The notes below the pieces were generated by a model. That model had not been told where the DNA came from. It searched no databases and saw only the letters and a program-made list of their open reading frames with translations. Of a stretch of DNA of 64,000 bases, positions 35,996 to 41,760 are shown piece after piece. The translations under genes were made by a program, and so were the position numbers. Within the stretch, counting starts at the first letter, position 1. Each line of letters begins with the position of its first letter. The DNA is from Escherichia coli. Its GTDB lineage: Bacteria; Pseudomonadota; Gammaproteobacteria; Enterobacterales; Enterobacteriaceae. The stretch lies in assembly GCF_050920415.1 (NCBI RefSeq), contig NZ_CP169309.1. One strand, written 5' to 3'.

Positions 35996-36363
35996 TAACA
36001 TAATGTTGTAAAAACCGAATGCCCCGACCTTCAAAAACAGGTGGGGCATTCGGTTACTTATTAATGCAATAATATATTGGCTGTTTATTCATCGTGTTGA
36101 TAAGATATATGTTATATGAATGTTATTAAGGGTGGCGAGACCGTTTAATATCACAATAAGGGATTATTTGCTTACTAATAATTCCTCTGCGTTTTAAACG
36201 TCTTTTTTTGTATTATAAATCCAGTTATCCAGCCCGACTATCATCACACATCATCATCCTGTTTTCCCGCTTCGTTTAAATTTATTTATCAATCAATTTG
36301 ACTTAAGAGGGCGGCGTGCTACATTAATAAACAGTAATATGTTTATGTAATATTAAGCCGACT

Positions 36364-37188
36364 ATGCAATCACTACATGGTAATTGTCTAATTGCGTACG
36401 CAAGACATAAATATATTCTCACCATGGTTAATGGTGAATATCGCTATTTTAATGGCGGTGAACTGGTTTTTGCGGATGCAAGTCAAATTCAAGTGGATAA
36501 GTGTGTCGAGAATTTTGTATTAGTTTCAAGGGACACGCTTTCATTATTTCTCCCGATGCTCAAGGAGGAGGCATTAAATCTTCATGCACATAAAAAAGTT
36601 CCTTCGTTACTCGTTCATCACTGTACCAGAGATATTCCTGTTTTTCAGGAGGTTGCGCAACTATCGCAGAATAAGAATCTGCGCTATGCAGAAATGCTCC
36701 GTAAAAGAGCATTAATCTTTGCGTTGTTATCTGTTTTCCTGGAGGACGAGCAGTTTATACCGCTGCTTCTGAACGTTTTGCAACCGAACATGCGAACACG
36801 AGTTTGTACGGTCATCAATAATAATATCGCCCATGAGTGGACATTAGCCCAAATCGCCAGCGAGCTGTTGATGAGTTCAAGCCTGTTAAAGAAAAAATTG
36901 CGCGAAGAAGGTACGTCATATTCACAGTTGCTTACTGAGTGTAGAATGCAACGTGCTTTGCAACTTATTGTTATACATGGTTTTTCAATTAAGCGAGTTG
37001 CAGTGTCCTGTGGTTATCACAGCGTGTCGTATTTCATTTACGTTTTTCGAAATTATTATGGGATGACGCCCACAGAGTATCAGGAGCGATCAGCACAAGA
37101 ATTGCCGAACCGTGACTCGGTGGCAAGTATTGTTGCGCAAGGGAATTTTTACGGTACTAACTATTCTGCGGAAGAAATAAGATTATAG
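36364..37188 (+). CDS. gadX: AraC-family acid-resistance regulator GadX
   Basis: 274 aa with C-terminal AraC HTH. Confidence 0.92.
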   Translation: MQSLHGNCLIAYARHKYILTMVNGEYRYFNGGELVFADASQIQVDKCVENFVLVSRDTLSLFLPMLKEEALNLHAHKKVPSLLVHHCTRDIPVFQEVAQLSQNKNLRYAEMLRKRALIFALLSVFLEDEQFIPLLLNVLQPNMRTRVCTVINNNIAHEWTLAQIASELLMSSSLLKKKLREEGTSYSQLLTECRMQRALQLIVIHGFSIKRVAVSCGYHSVSYFIYVFRNYYGMTPTEYQERSAQELPNRDSVASIVAQGNFYGTNYSAEEIRL

Positions 37189-37203
37189 TTTTTACCCAGA
37201 CAT

Positions 37204-37309
37204 AAAAAAAACCCGGCATAGGGGACCGGGAAGAGGATAGTCTGCCGTCTCCAGACTAATAAACCGTTATAACACTCCCTGTTGGCACGGGAAACTTTGT
37301 GCTCTCAGT
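37204..37309 (-). ncRNA. gadY: GadY small RNA, antisense to the gadX 3' end
   Basis: Reverse complement begins actgagagcacaaagtttcccgtgcc and ends in a poly-U terminator (A-run 37204-37211 on plus). Ends are approximate. Confidence 0.6.
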
Positions 37310-37555
37310 AAGTTAAATATAACTTTTACTGGAGATAAGATCAGCCATTTTTTTATAAACATAAGCTATGCGCTGTGTGAAAATATATTCTTCTTGCATT
37401 TTCTTATTATCAATTAACTGTTATGTCAAACTACTTTTTGGATAACTTTTGGTCCTACCAAATATGGCAGTTTATGCACGAAGAAGCGGTCTGGCATCAT
37501 TTCATTAGTATACTGAAATTGAAATAATCGCAGTAATGAAATATAAGGGATAGTC

Positions 37556-38284
37556 ATGACTCATGTCTGCTCGGTGATCCTCGTTCGTCGTTCATTGGAT
37601 ATTCATCATGAACAGCAAAAAATATCGTTGCACAACGAAAGTATTCTACTGCTGGATAAAAATTTGGCAGACGATTTTGCGTTTTGTTCACCGGATACAC
37701 GACGACTGGATATCGATGAGCTGACAGTTTGCCATTACTTACAAAATATTCGTCAGTTACCGCGCAATTTAGGGTTACATAGCAAAGACCGTTTGTTAAT
37801 TAACCAGTCCCCGCCCATGCCTCTGGTGACGGCGATTTTTGATAGTTTCAATGAATCCGGAGTAAATTCGCCGATACTGAGCAATATGCTCTACCTTTCC
37901 TGTTTATCTATGTTTTCTCATAAGAAAGAACTAATCCCCTTACTTTTCAATAGTATCAGCACTGTTTCAGGAAAAGTTGAACGCCTTATTAGCTTTGATA
38001 TCGCTAAACGTTGGTATCTACGCGATATCGCGGAAAGAATGTATACCAGCGAGAGTCTCATCAAAAAAAAGTTGCAGGACGAAAATACCTGTTTCAGTAA
38101 AATATTACTCGCTTCCAGGATGTCGATGGCCAGACGATTACTCGAGTTACGTCAAATTCCTCTACATACTATTGCGGAAAAATGTGGGTATAGCAGTACG
38201 TCGTACTTTATAAACACATTTCGACAATATTATGGTGTAACGCCACATCAGTTTGCGCAACATTCGCCAGGTACCTTTTCCTGA
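37556..38284 (+). CDS. gadW: AraC-family acid-resistance regulator GadW
   Basis: 242 aa with AraC HTH. Confidence 0.92.
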   Translation: MTHVCSVILVRRSLDIHHEQQKISLHNESILLLDKNLADDFAFCSPDTRRLDIDELTVCHYLQNIRQLPRNLGLHSKDRLLINQSPPMPLVTAIFDSFNESGVNSPILSNMLYLSCLSMFSHKKELIPLLFNSISTVSGKVERLISFDIAKRWYLRDIAERMYTSESLIKKKLQDENTCFSKILLASRMSMARRLLELRQIPLHTIAEKCGYSSTSYFINTFRQYYGVTPHQFAQHSPGTFS

Positions 38285-38646
38285 CATATTTCGCATTTGA
38301 ATATTGGTCAGGATCTCACACGTGCTTCATGTGAAACTCTTCCCTGATGATTTCTGCCGGGCTACCGGCTAGTTCTCTTTCGCAGTATGCCAGGCGGTAT
38401 AGGTATTTTCAGGAGGAAAAGACTCGGCATGTTTGGGATTATTAAGCTGACAATTCATACGATTACGGGAATGTGGGTCAGTATTGTGCTGTTCAAATTG
38501 ATGACGAATGGCTGGAGTGGTTTTTACTTTCAGTGCTGTGTACTAAGCCTGGTATTCCTGACGGTTAGCTGGTTGTTGAGTGGTGAATGGTTAGCAGGAA
38601 AGAGTAAGGCTGAACCCTCACGTTCAACCTTACTCTCATTTACACG

Positions 38647-41600
38647 TTACGCTTTTTTAAAGCGGGCAAAGAGATGTTCCACTACAACGAAAAAGACTGG
38701 AACGAAGTAAATGGCCAGCACTGTTGCGGCAAACATCCCGCCCATCACGCCGGTACCTACCGCGTTTTGCGCGCCGGAACCGGCACCGTGGCTGATTACC
38801 AGCGGCAACACGCCGAGAATAAAGGCCAGAGAGGTCATCAGGATTGGGCGTAAACGCATCCGCGCCGCTTCGATGATTGCCTCTATCGGCGTTTTCCCTT
38901 CTTTCTGCATCATCTCAACGGCAAATTCGACGATCAGGATGGCGTTCTTGGCGGAAAGCCCGATGGTAGTCAGCAAACCAACCTGGAAGTAGACGTCATT
39001 ACTTAAGCCGCGCAGATCGGTGGCCAGTAATGCGCCAACGACACCTAACGGTACAACCAACATCACCGAGAACGGAATTGACCAGCTCTCATAAAGTGCG
39101 GCAAGGGCGAGGAACACCACGACCAGTGAAATGGCATACAGCGCGGGAGCCTGGTTTGAGGATAACGCTTCCTGATACGACAGTCCGGTCCACGAGTAGC
39201 CGACGCCTGCCGGAAGTTTAGCGACCAGGTCTGCCATAAATTTCATAGCGTCACCGGTACTTTTCCCGGCCGCCGCTTCACCTAAAATCTCCATTGACGG
39301 GATGCCGTTGTAGCGTTCCAGTCGCGGTGAACCATAGGTCCATTCGGTAGACGAATAGGCCGAAAGCGGTGCCATCGTGCCAGAGGCGTTGCGTACATAC
39401 CACTGGTTGATGTTATCCGGCAACATACGGAACGGCGTGCCTGCCTGGACATACACTTTTTTCACCCGCCCCTGGTTGAGGAAGTCGTTCACGTAGCTGC
39501 TGCCGAAGGCGGTGGAAATTGTCTGGTTGATATCAGACAGCGCCACACCCATTGCCTCGGCTTTCGCGGCGTTGACGTTCACTTTGAACATCGGCGTATC
39601 TTCCAGTCCGTTCGGGCGTACCCCGGTGACCTGATTCGGTGATTGCGCTGCCAGTGATAATAGCTCGTTTCGCGCCTGGGTCAGTTTTTCGTGCCCCAGG
39701 TTACCGTTGTCCAGCAGTTCCATATCAAAACCTGACGCGGTACCCAGTTCAGCCACCGCGGGTAAGTTGAACGGGAAGACGACGGCTTTATTGATACTGC
39801 TTAACGCAATCATTGCCCGCTGAATGATCGCGGTAACCGAGTTTTCCTCACCGACACGTTCAGACCACGGTTTGAGGCTGATAAACGCCAGACCGTTGTT
39901 TTGCCCCTGGCCACTGAAGCCAAAGCCGCCAACGGTAAACACCGACTGAACATTATCTTTCTCTTTTGTCAGATAATAATCAGTCACCTGTTGCAGCACT
40001 TTCTTGGTGTTAACCATGGTTGCACCGGAAGGTAACTGCGCGGTGGTCATAAATACCCCCTGATCCTCTTCTGGTAAGAAAGAGGTCGGCGTACGCAGGA
40101 ACAGCACCGCCATCCCGGCGCAAATCAGCAGGTAGACCACCATGTAGCGACCGGTACAACGCAACAGCGAGCGGGTGCTGTCGGTATAGTGATGAGTCGA
40201 TTTTTCAAACAGCGTGTTGAAGCGTGCGAACAGGGCGTTAGGTTTGTGACCGCCTTCCGGCGCGGCTTTCAGAATGGTGGCGCACAGGGCAGGGGTCAGG
40301 CTCATTGCCACAAATACTGAAAGCAGCATCGAGGAGATCAGCGTGATGGAGAACTGTCGGTAGATCTCCCCGGTTGCACCGCTCATAAAGGCCATCGGCA
40401 TAAACACTGCGGAAAGAACAACGGCAATCCCGACCAGCGCACGTTGGATCTGCCCCATCGATTTATGCGTCGCTTCCTTCGGCGGTAGTTTATCTTCCGC
40501 AATGACACGCTCGACGTTCTCCACCACCACGATGGCGTCATCCACCAGTAACCCTATCGCCAGCACCATCCCGAACATAGTTAACGTGTTGATGGTGAAA
40601 CCGACCGCCGACAAGATCGCAAACGTCCCGAGAATAACCACCGGTACGGCAATCGTCGGGATGATTGTGGCGCGGAAATTCTGCAAAAACAGATACATGA
40701 CCAGGAAGACGAGGATGATAGCCTCAACCAGCGTTTTGAAAACTTCCTGAATAGAAATTTTGATAAACGGTGTGGTGTCGTAAGGATAAACCGTCTTCAG
40801 GCTTGCGGGGAAATAAGCCGATAAACGGTTCAGCTCCTCTTTCACCGCTCGCGAGGTATCCAGGGCGTTTGCTCCGGTAGCCAGTTTGATGGCGATCCCG
40901 GCAGCAGGTTTGCCGTTATAGCGCGCCACGGTGGAATAATCTTCCGCCCCAAGTTCGACGCGGGCGACATCACGCAGCAGTACTTGCGAACCATCTTGCT
41001 GAACTTTCAACAGGATTTTGCCAAATTCTTCCGGCGTTTGCAGACGCGTCTGCACAATGATCGAGGCGTTCAGTTGCTGGTCTGCCGCCTGTGGCATGCC
41101 ACCCAGTTGACCACCAGAAATCTGGTTGTTTTGCACCTTAATCTGGGAAATAACATCGGAAGGTACCAGGTTGTATTTATTGAGTTTTTGCGGGTCCAGC
41201 CAGATACGCATGGCATACTCGGAACCAAAGAGTTGTACGCTACCAACGCCCGCGGTACGGCTTAGCGGGTCTTTGATATTAGACGCTACATAGTCCGCGA
41301 TATCGTACTGGTTGAGACTGCCGTTATCAGAAATAAACGCCGCTACCATCAGGATATTACTGCTCGACTTATCGACGCTAATACCCTGCTGCTGCACCGC
41401 TTCAGGTAATGAAGGCATAGCGAGTTGCAGTTTATTTTGCACCTGAACCTGCGCGATATCAGGCGATGTCCCCGTCTCGAAGGTCAGAGTGATGGAGGCA
41501 TTACCCGCCGCATCGCTGGTTGAAGACATGTACATCAGGCCATCAAGCCCATTCATATTTTGCTCAATCACCTGAGTGACCGAGTCTTCTACCGTTTGCG

Positions 41601-41760
41601 CATCGGCACCCGGATAGGTTGCGCTGACGGTAATGGTTGGTGGCGCAATCTGCGGATATTGCGCAACCGGTAAGTTCATGATCGCCAGACCACCTGCAAG
41701 CATCATAATAATGGCAAGTACCCAGGCAAAAACCGGGCGATCAATAAAATAGTTAGCCAT
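38647..41760 (-). CDS. mdtF: RND multidrug efflux pump MdtF
   Basis: 1037 aa, AcrB-like. Confidence 0.93.

What the first reader, a model, noticed from the sequence alone, without database searches (positions are those of the whole stretch)
38429..38710. Candidate small membrane-protein ORF in the convergent gadW-mdtF gap
Seen in sequence: an ATG at 38429, preceded by AGGAGG at 38411-38416, opens a 93-codon frame (MFGIIKLTIHTITGMWVSIVLFKLMTNGWSGFYFQCCVLSLVFLTVSWLL...) with two hydrophobic helix-like stretches. It lies in the 362-bp gap between the convergent gadW and mdtF and overlaps the mdtF 3' end by 64 nt on the opposite strand. I do not recall an annotated gene here. It could be an unannotated small protein or a chance ORF.
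Basis: seen in the sequence. Interest (0 to 1): 0.35.

Follow-up and report, generated by a model that had tools for sequence, protein, structure and literature searches.

The report
Acid-induced small membrane protein gene sORF15
The 93-codon frame between gadW and mdtF is a real, evolutionarily conserved gene for a small two-helix inner-membrane protein, already published in 2023 as the acid-induced candidate "sORF15" but still missing from genome annotations and of unknown function.

Summary
It is not new. Schumacher et al. 2023 (mSystems, PMC10746267) reported this ORF in E. coli K-12 as sORF15 (NC_000913.3:3663464-3663745, minus strand). It is 16-19-fold induced at pH 4.4 in RNA-seq and Ribo-seq, and a plasmid-borne FLAG fusion was detected. 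The window protein differs from it at one residue. RefSeq/PGAP and the curated K-12 record still annotate nothing there.

New here is evolutionary evidence that it is a selected coding gene. The frame is open in all nine Escherichia lineages compared. All gap indels fall upstream of it. dN/dS is 0.06-0.28, against 0.79-1.74 in four of the five control frames. Variable sites fall 23:14:42 by codon position. Permutation P ranges from under 5e-5 to 0.016. A 54-aa ortholog sits at the syntenic site in E. fergusonii (49% identity), keeps both helices and a GWSGF-x-F-x-CC motif, and lacks the basic tail.

The tail overlaps the mdtF terminator hairpin and mdtF's 3' end, so its importance is uncertain. 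No relatives exist outside Escherichia. The protein's partner and function remain inferred. Already known; modest interest.

The parts
38429..38710 (+). sORF15 coding sequence (93 codons plus TAA). It is 92/93 identical to the published K-12 sORF15 (R65 here, C65 in K-12).
   Evidence: for identity. for dN/dS, frame controls and the permutation test.
38405..38420 (+). Translation initiation region. ATTTTCAGGAGGAAAA is invariant in all nine Escherichia lineages and contains the AGGAGG Shine-Dalgarno at 38411-38416.
   Evidence: alignment of the gap. The surrounding gap is 44% variable.
38429..38590 (+). Conserved core, codons 1-54. It comprises TM helix 1, a short loop with invariant T-N-G-W-S-G-F (codons 26-32), an invariant Cys36-Cys37 pair, and TM helix 2. 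This is the only part shared with the E. fergusonii ortholog.
   Evidence: AF2 helices 2-26 and 31-58. Hydropathy. Invariant columns. BLASTP 49% identity over 41 aa to P0050. dN/dS 0.05-0.22 over codons 1-57.
38591..38707 (+). Basic C-terminal tail, codons 55-93 (11 K/R, 1 D/E), with a predicted third helix at residues 65-87. It is absent from E. fergusonii, altered in sporadic E. coli alleles, and confounded by overlapping constraints.
38600..38637 (-). Stem-loop 10 nt downstream of the mdtF stop. On the mdtF strand it is a 16-bp stem with a 6-nt loop (-27.3 kcal/mol, z = -5.5), followed by CUUUCCU. It is probably the mdtEF terminator or a 3' stabiliser, and it lies inside sORF15 codons 58-70.
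   Evidence: fold; a G·U pair on the minus strand is a C·A mismatch on the plus strand. (98% of cells paired, one compensatory pair, variable loop; statistically modest)..
38647..38710 (-). 3' end of mdtF (last 20 codons plus stop) overlapped antisense by sORF15 codons 73-93. The third codon positions of the two genes coincide.
   Evidence: Phase worked out from the coordinates. 6 variable sites of 66, falling 0:1:5 by sORF15 codon position.
37556..38284 (+). gadW, the upstream gene whose transcript carries sORF15 (published as the gadW 3' UTR). In E. fergusonii only 19 nt separate the two ORFs.
38356..38369 (+). GC hairpin (GCCGG-loop-CCGGC) followed by a T-rich run, lying between gadW and sORF15. 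The stem is kept and the loop varies across lineages. It may be a leaky gadW terminator or attenuator.
   Evidence: terminator-like pattern. (alignment). The fold is not exceptional (z = -0.55).

Best explanation
Window 38429-38710 is a real protein-coding gene, the one published as sORF15. It encodes a 93-residue inner-membrane protein with two transmembrane helices. These are joined by a short, probably periplasmic loop (invariant NGWSGF, then an invariant Cys-Cys at the start of helix 2) and followed by a strongly basic, probably cytoplasmic tail. It has no promoter of its own. It is transcribed by read-through from gadW (the gadXW unit) and translated from its own conserved Shine-Dalgarno, so it is made when the acid-fitness island is switched on (pH 4.4). 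Shown here or in the paper: the ORF, its SD, its translation, its acid induction, purifying selection on the frame, synteny across Escherichia, and the conserved two-helix core. Inferred: the topology (positive-inside rule) and the function. My committed guess for function is a small accessory or regulatory subunit that binds a larger membrane protein of the same island. The most likely partner is the RND pump MdtF/MdtEF-TolC, with GadC as second choice, in the manner of AcrZ-AcrB or MgtS-MgtA. I favour MdtF because the conserved neighbourhood in both E. coli and E. fergusonii is gadE-mdtE-mdtF-sORF-gadW. The confidence given is for 'real, selected, membrane-protein gene co-expressed with gadW'. 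The MdtF-partner step alone I put at about 0.25.
For: Identity with published sORF15: the K-12 coordinates and the sequence match at 92/93 residues. Published data: Ribo-seq log2FC 4.21 (padj 1e-38) and RNA log2FC 4.03 at pH 4.4 versus 7.6; a FLAG-tagged product from pBAD24; two TM helices predicted. Selection: the frame is open in all nine lineages at GadW identities down to 79%. All four indel events in the gap lie at 38285-38378 and none lie in 38429-38646. dN/dS is 0.07-0.28 over codons 1-72, against gadW at 0.05-0.13. The frame control gives pN/pS 0.22 with no stops, against 0.79-1.74 with stops in four of the other five frames; the fifth, the antisense frame that shares its wobble positions, gives 0.29 but has 3 stops in every sequence. 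Variable sites by codon position are 23:14:42 (P = 2e-4), against 23:22:19 in the untranslated gap. The mutation-spectrum-preserving permutation test gives P from under 5e-5 to 0.016 for seven lineage pairs. A syntenic 54-aa ortholog exists in E. fergusonii: profile E = 2.3e-6, 49% identity, codon-position differences 23:11:38, and pN/pS 0.35 against 0.94 and 1.61 in the other frames. Population: 13/13 complete genomes, 32/39 metagenome contigs, and O157:H7 and B2 strains are intact. Co-transcription: no sigma-70-like promoter on the plus strand, and only a 19-nt gadW-sORF gap in E. fergusonii. Structure: AF2 helices 2-26, 31-58 and 65-87; the tail has 11 K/R and 1 D/E.
Against: No phenotype, partner or chromosomally expressed protein has been shown. 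The published western used an arabinose-induced plasmid carrying only 15 nt of native upstream sequence. The SD-to-ATG spacing of 12 nt is long. The ORF was not found in the held supplements of a neutral-pH start-site profiling study or an N-terminomics study, although it is expected to be silent at neutral pH. The AF2 model is only moderately confident (mean pLDDT 64). The tail's conservation cannot be separated from constraints on the mdtF hairpin and mdtF coding sequence, E. fergusonii lacks the tail, and sporadic alleles truncate it. Nothing tested here links the protein specifically to MdtF rather than GadC or any other partner. It has two helices and no sequence similarity to AcrZ.
Confidence: 0.85

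Rival explanations
1. Only the roughly 54-residue two-helix core is the functional protein. The basic tail (codons 55-93) is an evolutionary by-product: the frame happens to stay open through the mdtF terminator hairpin and the antisense of mdtF's last codons, whose wobble positions coincide with its own. This refines the best explanation and does not exclude it.
For: The E. fergusonii ortholog stops at codon 54, just before its own mdtF terminator. In E. fergusonii a single TAA separates the short form from an open continuation that reads ...RFLKRENRC, like the E. coli tail [10 protein letters not shown]. Frameshifted or truncated E. coli alleles nearly all keep residues 1-47 to 1-57 and change only the tail. 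The tail's low variability is explained by the hairpin and by mdtF coding (0:1:5 variable sites).
Against: The 93-codon length and stop position are kept in all nine E. coli-side lineages and in 13/13 complete genomes. Codons 58-72 still show a third-position excess (3:4:8). An in-frame 5-codon deletion allele keeps the tail in frame (L017). AF2 predicts an amphipathic-looking helix at 65-87.
Confidence: 0.35
2. The sequence is conserved for RNA-level reasons: it is the gadW 3' UTR, or an antisense partner of the mdtF 3' end, or the mdtF terminator. Translation of the frame would then be incidental (pervasive translation), with no function for the peptide.
For: The locus has a precedent for antisense RNA control, with GadY at 37199-37312. 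A strong hairpin lies inside the ORF. Convergent transcripts must overlap by at least 64 nt. Many Ribo-seq-detected sORFs are not functional, and the neighbouring published candidate sORF14 is not conserved as a peptide.
Against: RNA-level constraint does not produce three-base periodicity of substitutions, a pN/pS of 0.22 in one open frame only, or an absence of indels over 218 nt next to an indel-rich gap. These signals hold for codons 1-57, upstream of the hairpin and of mdtF. At 54% nucleotide identity, E. fergusonii still keeps the frame and the GWSGF..CC motif.
Confidence: 0.06
3. It is a chance ORF with no selection at all, kept open only because E. coli genomes are so similar to each other.
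For: Within E. coli the region is 95-100% identical, so openness within the species alone says little. No Pfam, NCBIfam or PDB relatives exist. No gene is annotated there.
Against: The frame is open and under purifying selection in lineages whose synonymous divergence reaches 0.8-1.3. The ortholog in E. fergusonii argues against it. An ORF this long arises in only 1.4% of shuffles.
Confidence: 0.03
4. The true product is the longer 107-aa form, which starts at the in-frame ATG at 38387.
For: the ORF listing reports the 38387-38710 ORF, and the extension contains no stop.
Against: ATG 38387 exists only in this window's strain and is TTG in every other lineage. The conserved SD at 38411-38416 lies inside that extension and is positioned for ATG 38429. 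The E. fergusonii N-terminus aligns with residue 1-2 of the 93-aa form. The published construct, with only 15 nt upstream of ATG 38429, produced protein.
Confidence: 0.03

Closest known systems
sORF15 of Schumacher et al. 2023 (mSystems 8:e01037-23; PMC10746267), E. coli K-12 NC_000913.3:3663464-3663745(-)
   Same: It is the same gene. It occupies the same position between gadW and mdtF, has the same SD and start, is 93 aa long, and matches at 92 of 93 residues.
   Different: There is one substitution (R65 here, C65 in K-12). The paper reports >80% homologs in Vibrio, Klebsiella, Salmonella and Enterococcus. I find relatives only at this Escherichia locus plus E. fergusonii, so those reports probably reflect mislabelled or contaminated records. 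The paper did not test selection or note the short E. fergusonii form.
AcrZ (YbhT), the 49-aa inner-membrane protein that binds the RND pump AcrB
   Same: Both are small inner-membrane proteins co-regulated with a stress regulon. sORF15 is encoded next to mdtF, an AcrB paralog. AcrZ is the working model for how sORF15 could act.
   Different: AcrZ has one TM helix and sORF15 has two plus a basic tail. No sequence similarity was detected by Pfam or NCBIfam. sORF15 is convergent to mdtF and is transcribed with gadW, not with the pump. No binding data exist.
Other small regulatory membrane proteins of E. coli (MgtS-MgtA/PitA, MgrB-PhoQ, SgrT-PtsG, KdpF, CydX)
   Same: They are stress-induced, under 100 aa, hydrophobic and restricted to a lineage. 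They were missed by annotation and found by Ribo-seq or tagging, and they act by binding larger membrane proteins (general knowledge; review cited in the paper as ref. 92).
   Different: No homology to any of them. Most are single-pass and under 50 aa. The partner of sORF15 is unknown.
Type I toxin-like small hydrophobic ORFs with antisense overlap (Hok, Ldr, Ibs, TisB, ShoB)
   Same: It is a small hydrophobic ORF whose 3' part is complementary to a convergent transcript.
   Different: The complementary RNA is the 3' end of a 3.1-kb pump mRNA, not a dedicated antitoxin sRNA. The protein has two helices and 93 aa. It could be overexpressed from pBAD for a western. No family match was found. Rejected as a member.

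Membership tests
Published sORF15 (Schumacher et al. 2023) | Located in the gadW 3' region, convergent with and overlapping the 3' end of mdtF, at K-12 coordinates 3663464-3663745(-) | tested here: met
   The window region aligns to K-12 at 98% identity, with the ORF at the homologous coordinates. Table S7 gives the coordinates.
Published sORF15 (Schumacher et al. 2023) | Amino-acid sequence MFGIIKLTIHTITGMWV...KKTGTK (93 aa), ATG start, TAA stop, upstream AGGAAAAGACTCGGC | tested here: met
   92/93 residues are identical (C65R), with the same 15-nt upstream sequence, start and stop.
Published sORF15 (Schumacher et al. 2023) | Induced at pH 4.4 at the RNA and ribosome-footprint level; tagged product detectable | not testable with these tools
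   Taken from the paper only: RIBO log2FC 4.21, RNA log2FC 4.03, and a pBAD24-sORF15:3xFLAG western.
Bona fide protein-coding gene (selected reading frame) | Purifying selection specific to this frame, with the frame preserved across diverged relatives | tested here: met
   dN/dS 0.07-0.28; frame controls; codon-position bias; indel distribution; permutation test; E. fergusonii ortholog.
AcrZ-like RND pump accessory proteins | Sequence membership in the AcrZ family | tested here: not met
   No Pfam or NCBIfam family matches at E <= 10.
AcrZ-like RND pump accessory proteins | Single transmembrane helix of about 49 aa | tested here: not met
   Two TM helices plus a tail, 93 aa in E. coli and 54 aa in E. 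fergusonii.
AcrZ-like RND pump accessory proteins | Physical binding to the RND permease and an effect on its substrate profile | not testable with these tools
   Needs co-purification, two-hybrid or cryo-EM with MdtF, plus efflux assays.
Type I toxin-antitoxin small hydrophobic toxins | A dedicated cis- or trans-encoded antisense sRNA repressing a toxic peptide of about 60 aa or less with one TM helix | tested here: not met
   No sRNA family other than GadY (which lies elsewhere) was found in 36000-39500 at E <= 1. The antisense partner is mdtF mRNA. The protein has two helices.

The most novel reading that the evidence does not exclude
sORF15 may be a dedicated, acid-induced two-helix accessory subunit of the MdtEF-TolC efflux pump (or of GadC). 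It would tune transport across the inner membrane at low pH through its invariant periplasmic NGWSGF/Cys-Cys face. Its basic tail would have arisen de novo by extending the reading frame through the convergent gene's terminator hairpin and the antisense of mdtF's last 20 codons. That would be a documented case of a C-terminal domain born from a terminator plus antisense coding sequence.
Probability: 0.15. Interest if true: 0.6.

Novelty: already known. Interest (0 to 1): 0.27.

Why it matters
The acid-fitness island is one of the most studied stress loci in E. coli, yet its gene list is still incomplete in every public annotation. None of the 40 complete E. coli genomes listed, nor the curated K-12 record, annotates this gene. 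Showing that sORF15 is under purifying selection across the genus separates it from the many Ribo-seq sORF candidates that are translational noise; its published neighbour sORF14 fails the same test. That justifies annotating it and looking for a phenotype. The conserved two-helix core and the NGWSGF/CC motif tell experimenters which residues to mutate. The short E. fergusonii form tells them that the basic tail may be dispensable. If it does modulate MdtEF or GadC, it would add a new component to acid resistance and to acid-linked multidrug efflux.

Tried and rejected
(1) Rfam scan of 36000-39500 at E <= 1 found only GadY (37199-37312) and a sub-threshold ES205 hit, so no known RNA lies in the ORF.
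(2) Pfam, NCBIfam and PDB sequence searches found no family or solved relative. The PDB hits (E > 5, xylose symporter TM segments) are noise.
(3) The promoter scan found no sigma-70-like promoter on the plus strand in 37900-39000, so I dropped the idea of an independent promoter.
(4) P0028, a '72% identical' homolog, does not translate back from its contigs, and its substitutions look like C-to-T converted reads. I excluded it.
(5) L010 (Escherichia sp. E2593) has three single-base insertions in 2.6 kb, the one in the ORF lying in a T-run (two in gadW, one in the sORF15/mdtF overlap). I treated these as probable sequencing errors and not as a real 96-aa allele.
(6) The supplements of Stringer et al. 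2021 (bioRxiv) and TRAINSPOTTER 2026 have no entry for this ORF. Weaver et al. 2019 is not held.
(7) A second search with the E. fergusonii peptide found only itself. Searching with its GadW-like regulator gave more E. fergusonii contigs whose sORF DNA is identical, so no extra variation was gained.
(8) My ungapped E. coli versus E. fergusonii mdtF comparison was misaligned, and I do not use it.
(9) I did not run a fold search. The AF2 model's mean pLDDT of 64 and a simple helical hairpin would give meaningless matches.
(10) Hairpin covariation is real but statistically weak (83 of 500 shuffles reach it), so I call the terminator assignment probable, not proven.
The invariant block is 38405-38420.
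Full report
**1. The observation**

- The ATG is at 38429, preceded by AGGAGG at 38411-38416 (12-nt spacer).
- The frame is open for 93 codons and ends with TAA at 38708-38710.
- It lies downstream of gadW (37556-38284, +) and converges on mdtF (38647-41760, -), overlapping mdtF's last 64 nt.

The window is the E. coli acid-fitness island in reverse orientation: gadX 36364-37188, GadY sRNA 37199-37312 (Rfam, 150 bits), then gadW and mdtF. An ATG-initiated ORF of at least 93 codons appears in 1.4% of dinucleotide-preserving shuffles of 38285-38710, and in 0.18% if an SD-like motif upstream is also required. So the ORF is unusual on its own but not decisive. A longer in-frame ATG at 38387 (107 aa) is peculiar to this strain; every other lineage has TTG there.

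**2. It is already in the literature but not in annotations**

The region is present at 95-100% identity in 5414 of 5426 complete E. coli genomes. In every record listed, the only annotated features under it are gadW and mdtF. The curated K-12 record NC_000913.3 also has nothing between mdtF and gadW.

A full-text search led to Schumacher et al. 2023 (mSystems 8:e01037-23, PMC10746267). [quoted passage not shown]
- Table S7 gives NC_000913.3:3663464-3663745(-), the upstream sequence AGGAAAAGACTCGGC, an ATG start, a TAA stop and the protein sequence.
- The window protein matches it at 92 of 93 residues (R65 here, C65 in K-12).
- At pH 4.4 versus 7.6, Ribo-seq log2FC is 4.21 (padj 1e-38) and RNA log2FC is 4.03, with translation efficiency unchanged.
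- DeepTMHMM predicts two TM helices.
- A 3xFLAG fusion expressed from pBAD24 with 15 nt of native leader was detected by western.
- The authors speculate about a link to GadC or MdtF.

I found no follow-up paper. The held supplements of one start-site profiling study and one N-terminomics study do not list the ORF. That study used neutral-pH cultures and focused on ORFs under 51 codons.

**3. New evidence: the frame is under purifying selection**

To avoid ascertainment bias I anchored on GadW in one-genome-per-species contigs and added divergent forms found through the protein search. This gave eight lineages besides the window:
- K-12;
- two near-E. coli lineages;
- E. coli E69 (GadW 89% identical);
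- Escherichia sp. E1V33 (79%);
- CP025979;
- Escherichia sp. E2593;
- one SRA assembly.

Overall DNA identity to the window over 2.6 kb runs from 97% down to 83%.

The results are as follows.

(a) The 93-codon frame is open in all nine sequences. The one exception is a T-run insertion at 38652 in E2593, an assembly with two further single-base insertions in gadW. I take it for sequencing error.

(b) All other indels in the gadW-mdtF gap (four events) lie at 38285-38378, upstream of the SD. None lies in the 218 nt of the ORF that do not overlap mdtF.

(c) Nei-Gojobori dN/dS for codons 1-72 is 0.07-0.28, with dS of 0.14-1.0. For codons 1-57, which lie upstream of both the hairpin and mdtF, it is 0.05-0.22. 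In the same sequences gadW gives 0.05-0.13 and mdtF 0.01-0.03.

(d) Frame control: the sORF15 frame has pN/pS 0.22 and no stops. Four other frames have 0.79-1.74 and 3-9 stops per sequence. The antisense frame that shares its wobble positions has 0.29, as expected for that geometry, but carries 3 stops in every sequence.

(e) Variable sites fall 23:14:42 by codon position (binomial P = 2e-4). That is the same pos2 < pos1 < pos3 order as gadW (70:43:175). The untranslated gap gives 23:22:19.

(f) A permutation test moves each lineage pair's observed substitutions to random sites with the same original base. As few amino-acid changes as observed arise with P from under 5e-5 to 0.016 in seven pairs.

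(g) A 16-nt block containing the SD (38405-38420) is invariant in all nine lineages, within a gap that is 44% variable.

**4. An ortholog in E. fergusonii defines the conserved core**

I ran an exhaustive profile search of 1.84 billion representative proteins with the ortholog alignment. It returned 19 proteins. Eighteen are fragments, frameshifted alleles or chimeric calls from this same locus.

The nineteenth, P0050, is 54 aa long: MIVGIIKLALLGITAISVCMVLLNLILHGWSGFFFHCCLICLGLLASCLVVNKN. It comes from E. fergusonii ATCC 35469 and lies at the syntenic position.
- The order is a GadW ortholog (63% identical), a 19-nt gap, the small ORF, then convergent mdtF, mdtE, a gadE-like gene and an hdeD-like gene.
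- It is 49% identical to sORF15 over 41 residues.
- At 54% nucleotide identity the differences fall 23:11:38 by codon position.
- pN/pS is 0.35, against gadW at 0.29 and the other two frames at 0.94 and 1.61.
- Two further E. fergusonii samples carry the identical ORF.

The shared part is the two-helix hairpin, with GIIKL near the N-terminus and G-W-S-G-F-(Y/F)-F-(Q/H)-C-C at the loop/helix-2 boundary. E. fergusonii stops right after helix 2, just before a canonical GC hairpin plus T-tract that terminates mdtF.

I found no relatives outside Escherichia and no match to Pfam, NCBIfam or PDB. The paper's report of >80% identical homologs in Vibrio, Klebsiella, Salmonella and Enterococcus is therefore most simply explained by mislabelled or contaminated records. 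This is an inference.

**5. Anatomy of the protein and of the overlapping signals**

AlphaFold2 on the alignment gives helices at 2-26, 31-58 and 65-87 (mean pLDDT 64; the first 50 residues score 68-80). Hydropathy peaks over residues 32-50. The tail (residues 55-93) has 11 K/R and 1 D/E, whereas the N-terminus and the loop each have a single K. By the positive-inside rule (established knowledge) this predicts N-in/C-in, with NGWSGF and Cys36-Cys37 at the periplasmic face.

Codons 58-70 coincide with a stem-loop at 38600-38637.
- On the mdtF strand it forms a perfect 16-bp stem (-27.3 kcal/mol, z = -5.5), followed by CUUUCCU.
- On the sORF15 strand the same stem has a C·A mismatch and is weaker (-18.7 kcal/mol).
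- Across 11 distinct sequences 98% of cells stay paired, one pair shows a U-A to C-G double change, five one-sided changes keep a standard pair, and the loop is the most variable part.
- The shuffle control is only modest, with 83 of 500 shuffles reaching the observed values.

I read this as the probable mdtEF terminator or 3' stabiliser. Codons 73-93 are antisense to mdtF's last 20 codons, with the two genes' third positions coinciding. The tail's conservation therefore cannot be attributed to sORF15 itself.

**6. Population picture**

A metagenome scan anchored on the 21-mer just upstream of the start returned 39 contigs.
- 32 carry an intact 93-aa ORF.
- 1 has an in-frame 5-codon deletion.
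- 2 are truncated, at 47 and 61 aa.
- 3 look like joins to unrelated sequence.

Thirteen complete genomes taken at even steps down the similarity ranking, including O157:H7, O145 and B2 strains, are all intact, with four protein variants that differ by single residues.

The disrupted alleles are sporadic. A 76-aa form comes from loss of one A in the A-run of GGAAAG and is seen mainly in raw-read assemblies. One O121 strain has an IS66 element inserted after about codon 13. Nearly all frameshifted forms keep the two-helix core and change only the tail.

**7. How it most likely works**

Shown, here or in the paper: the ORF is translated, is acid-induced together with gadW RNA, has a conserved SD, and encodes a selected two-helix hydrophobic protein.

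Inferred:
- It has no promoter of its own. None was predicted on the plus strand, and the gap is only 19 nt in E. fergusonii.
- It is therefore expressed by read-through from gadW, possibly past a conserved GC hairpin plus T-run at 38356-38369 that could act as a leaky terminator.
- As a small inner-membrane protein it most likely acts by binding a larger membrane protein, as AcrZ, MgtS, MgrB or SgrT do (general knowledge).

I commit to MdtF (MdtEF-TolC) as the likeliest partner, at about 0.25. The neighbourhood conserved between E. coli and E. fergusonii is gadE-mdtE-mdtF-sORF-gadW, whereas gadX and gadA are not adjacent in E. fergusonii. GadC is the second choice. None of this is tested.

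**8. Rivals**

- A chance ORF or pure RNA-level conservation is hard to reconcile with the codon periodicity, frame-specific dN/dS, indel distribution and the E. fergusonii ortholog.
- A live refinement is that only the 54-residue core matters and the tail is a by-product of a frame that stays open through the terminator and mdtF's antisense. In E. fergusonii a single TAA separates the short form from a continuation reading ...RFLKRENRC, much like the E. coli tail.
- The 107-aa start is rejected.

**9. Comparison with what is known, and verdict**

This is the published sORF15, so it counts as already known. It is not a member of the AcrZ family or of any type I toxin family: both feature tests failed. 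It may nevertheless work like AcrZ-type accessory proteins.

What this analysis adds:
- evidence of purifying selection on the frame;
- the genus-restricted distribution;
- the short E. fergusonii ortholog that defines the conserved core and motif;
- the finding that the tail overlaps the mdtF hairpin;
- the contrast with sORF14, which is not conserved as a peptide.

Interest is modest. A specialist would not be surprised that a Ribo-seq sORF in the acid-fitness island is real. The evidence does justify annotating the gene and gives a clear experimental path.

Noticed in passing
window 38331-38372 (+): The other published candidate in this gap, sORF14 (13 aa, GTG start), is not conserved as a peptide. 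Its start is GTA in two lineages, its TAG stop is AAG in six lineages and removed by the 11-nt deletion in a seventh, and indels at 38349, 38360 and 38368-38378 shift its frame. It is probably translational noise or at most a cis-acting element.
   Followed up: partly
window 38356-38369 (+): A GC hairpin (GCCGG-loop-CCGGC) followed by AGTTCTCTTT lies between gadW and the sORF15 SD. The stem is kept while the loop varies in eight of nine lineages; L002 has an 11-nt deletion that clips the 3' arm. It may be a leaky gadW terminator or attenuator controlling sORF15 read-through. The fold is not exceptional (z = -0.55).
   Followed up: partly
window 38387-38389: This strain has an in-frame ATG 42 nt upstream of the sORF15 start, giving a 107-aa ORF. 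All other lineages examined have TTG there.
   Followed up: yes
L062 6163-6260 (E. fergusonii ATCC 35469): After the TAA that ends the 54-aa ortholog, the same frame stays open across the mdtF terminator and into the antisense of mdtF. It reads ...GRFPGLAVTLLVINYVRFLKRENRC, which resembles the E. coli tail [11 protein letters not shown] single stop codon separates the short and long forms, and the direction of change (stop gain or stop loss) is unresolved.
   Followed up: partly
L074, L075 versus L062 (E. fergusonii): The GadW-like regulator of these samples is listed at 91% identity to that of ATCC 35469, yet the about 230 nt downstream, including the small ORF, are identical. This hints at a recombination boundary within or just after gadW.
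   Followed up: no
L055 2440-2560 (E. coli O121 strain 201805972, NZ_CP119441.1): An IS66-family element (tnpA, tnpB, tnpC) is inserted into sORF15 after about codon 13, separating it from gadW.
   Followed up: partly
L010 (Escherichia sp. E2593), window-equivalent 38033, 38064, 38652: This assembly has three single-base insertions in 2.6 kb, the one in the ORF lying in a T-run. They give an apparent 1043-aa MdtF and a 96-aa sORF15. They are probably assembly or sequencing errors and not real alleles.
   Followed up: partly
L012, L013 (protein P0028): A '72% identical' sORF15 homolog seen in 30 SRA-derived blocks does not translate back from its contigs, and its changes (T to I/M, A to V, S/P to F/L, R to C/W) look like C-to-T converted reads (bisulfite-type data) and not a divergent lineage.
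   Followed up: no
window 37199-37312 (-): The GadY sRNA is present and full length between gadX and gadW (Rfam RF00122, 150 bits, E = 4.5e-33). This confirms the locus identity and the precedent for antisense RNA control in this operon.
   Followed up: no
PMC10746267, main text and Fig. S9C: The paper reports sORF15 homologs with >80% identity in Vibrio, Klebsiella, Salmonella and Enterococcus. An exhaustive profile search of 1.84 billion representatives, and a GadW-anchored scan of 100,044 species genomes, found relatives only in Escherichia. Those database records are probably mislabelled or contaminated.
   Followed up: partly
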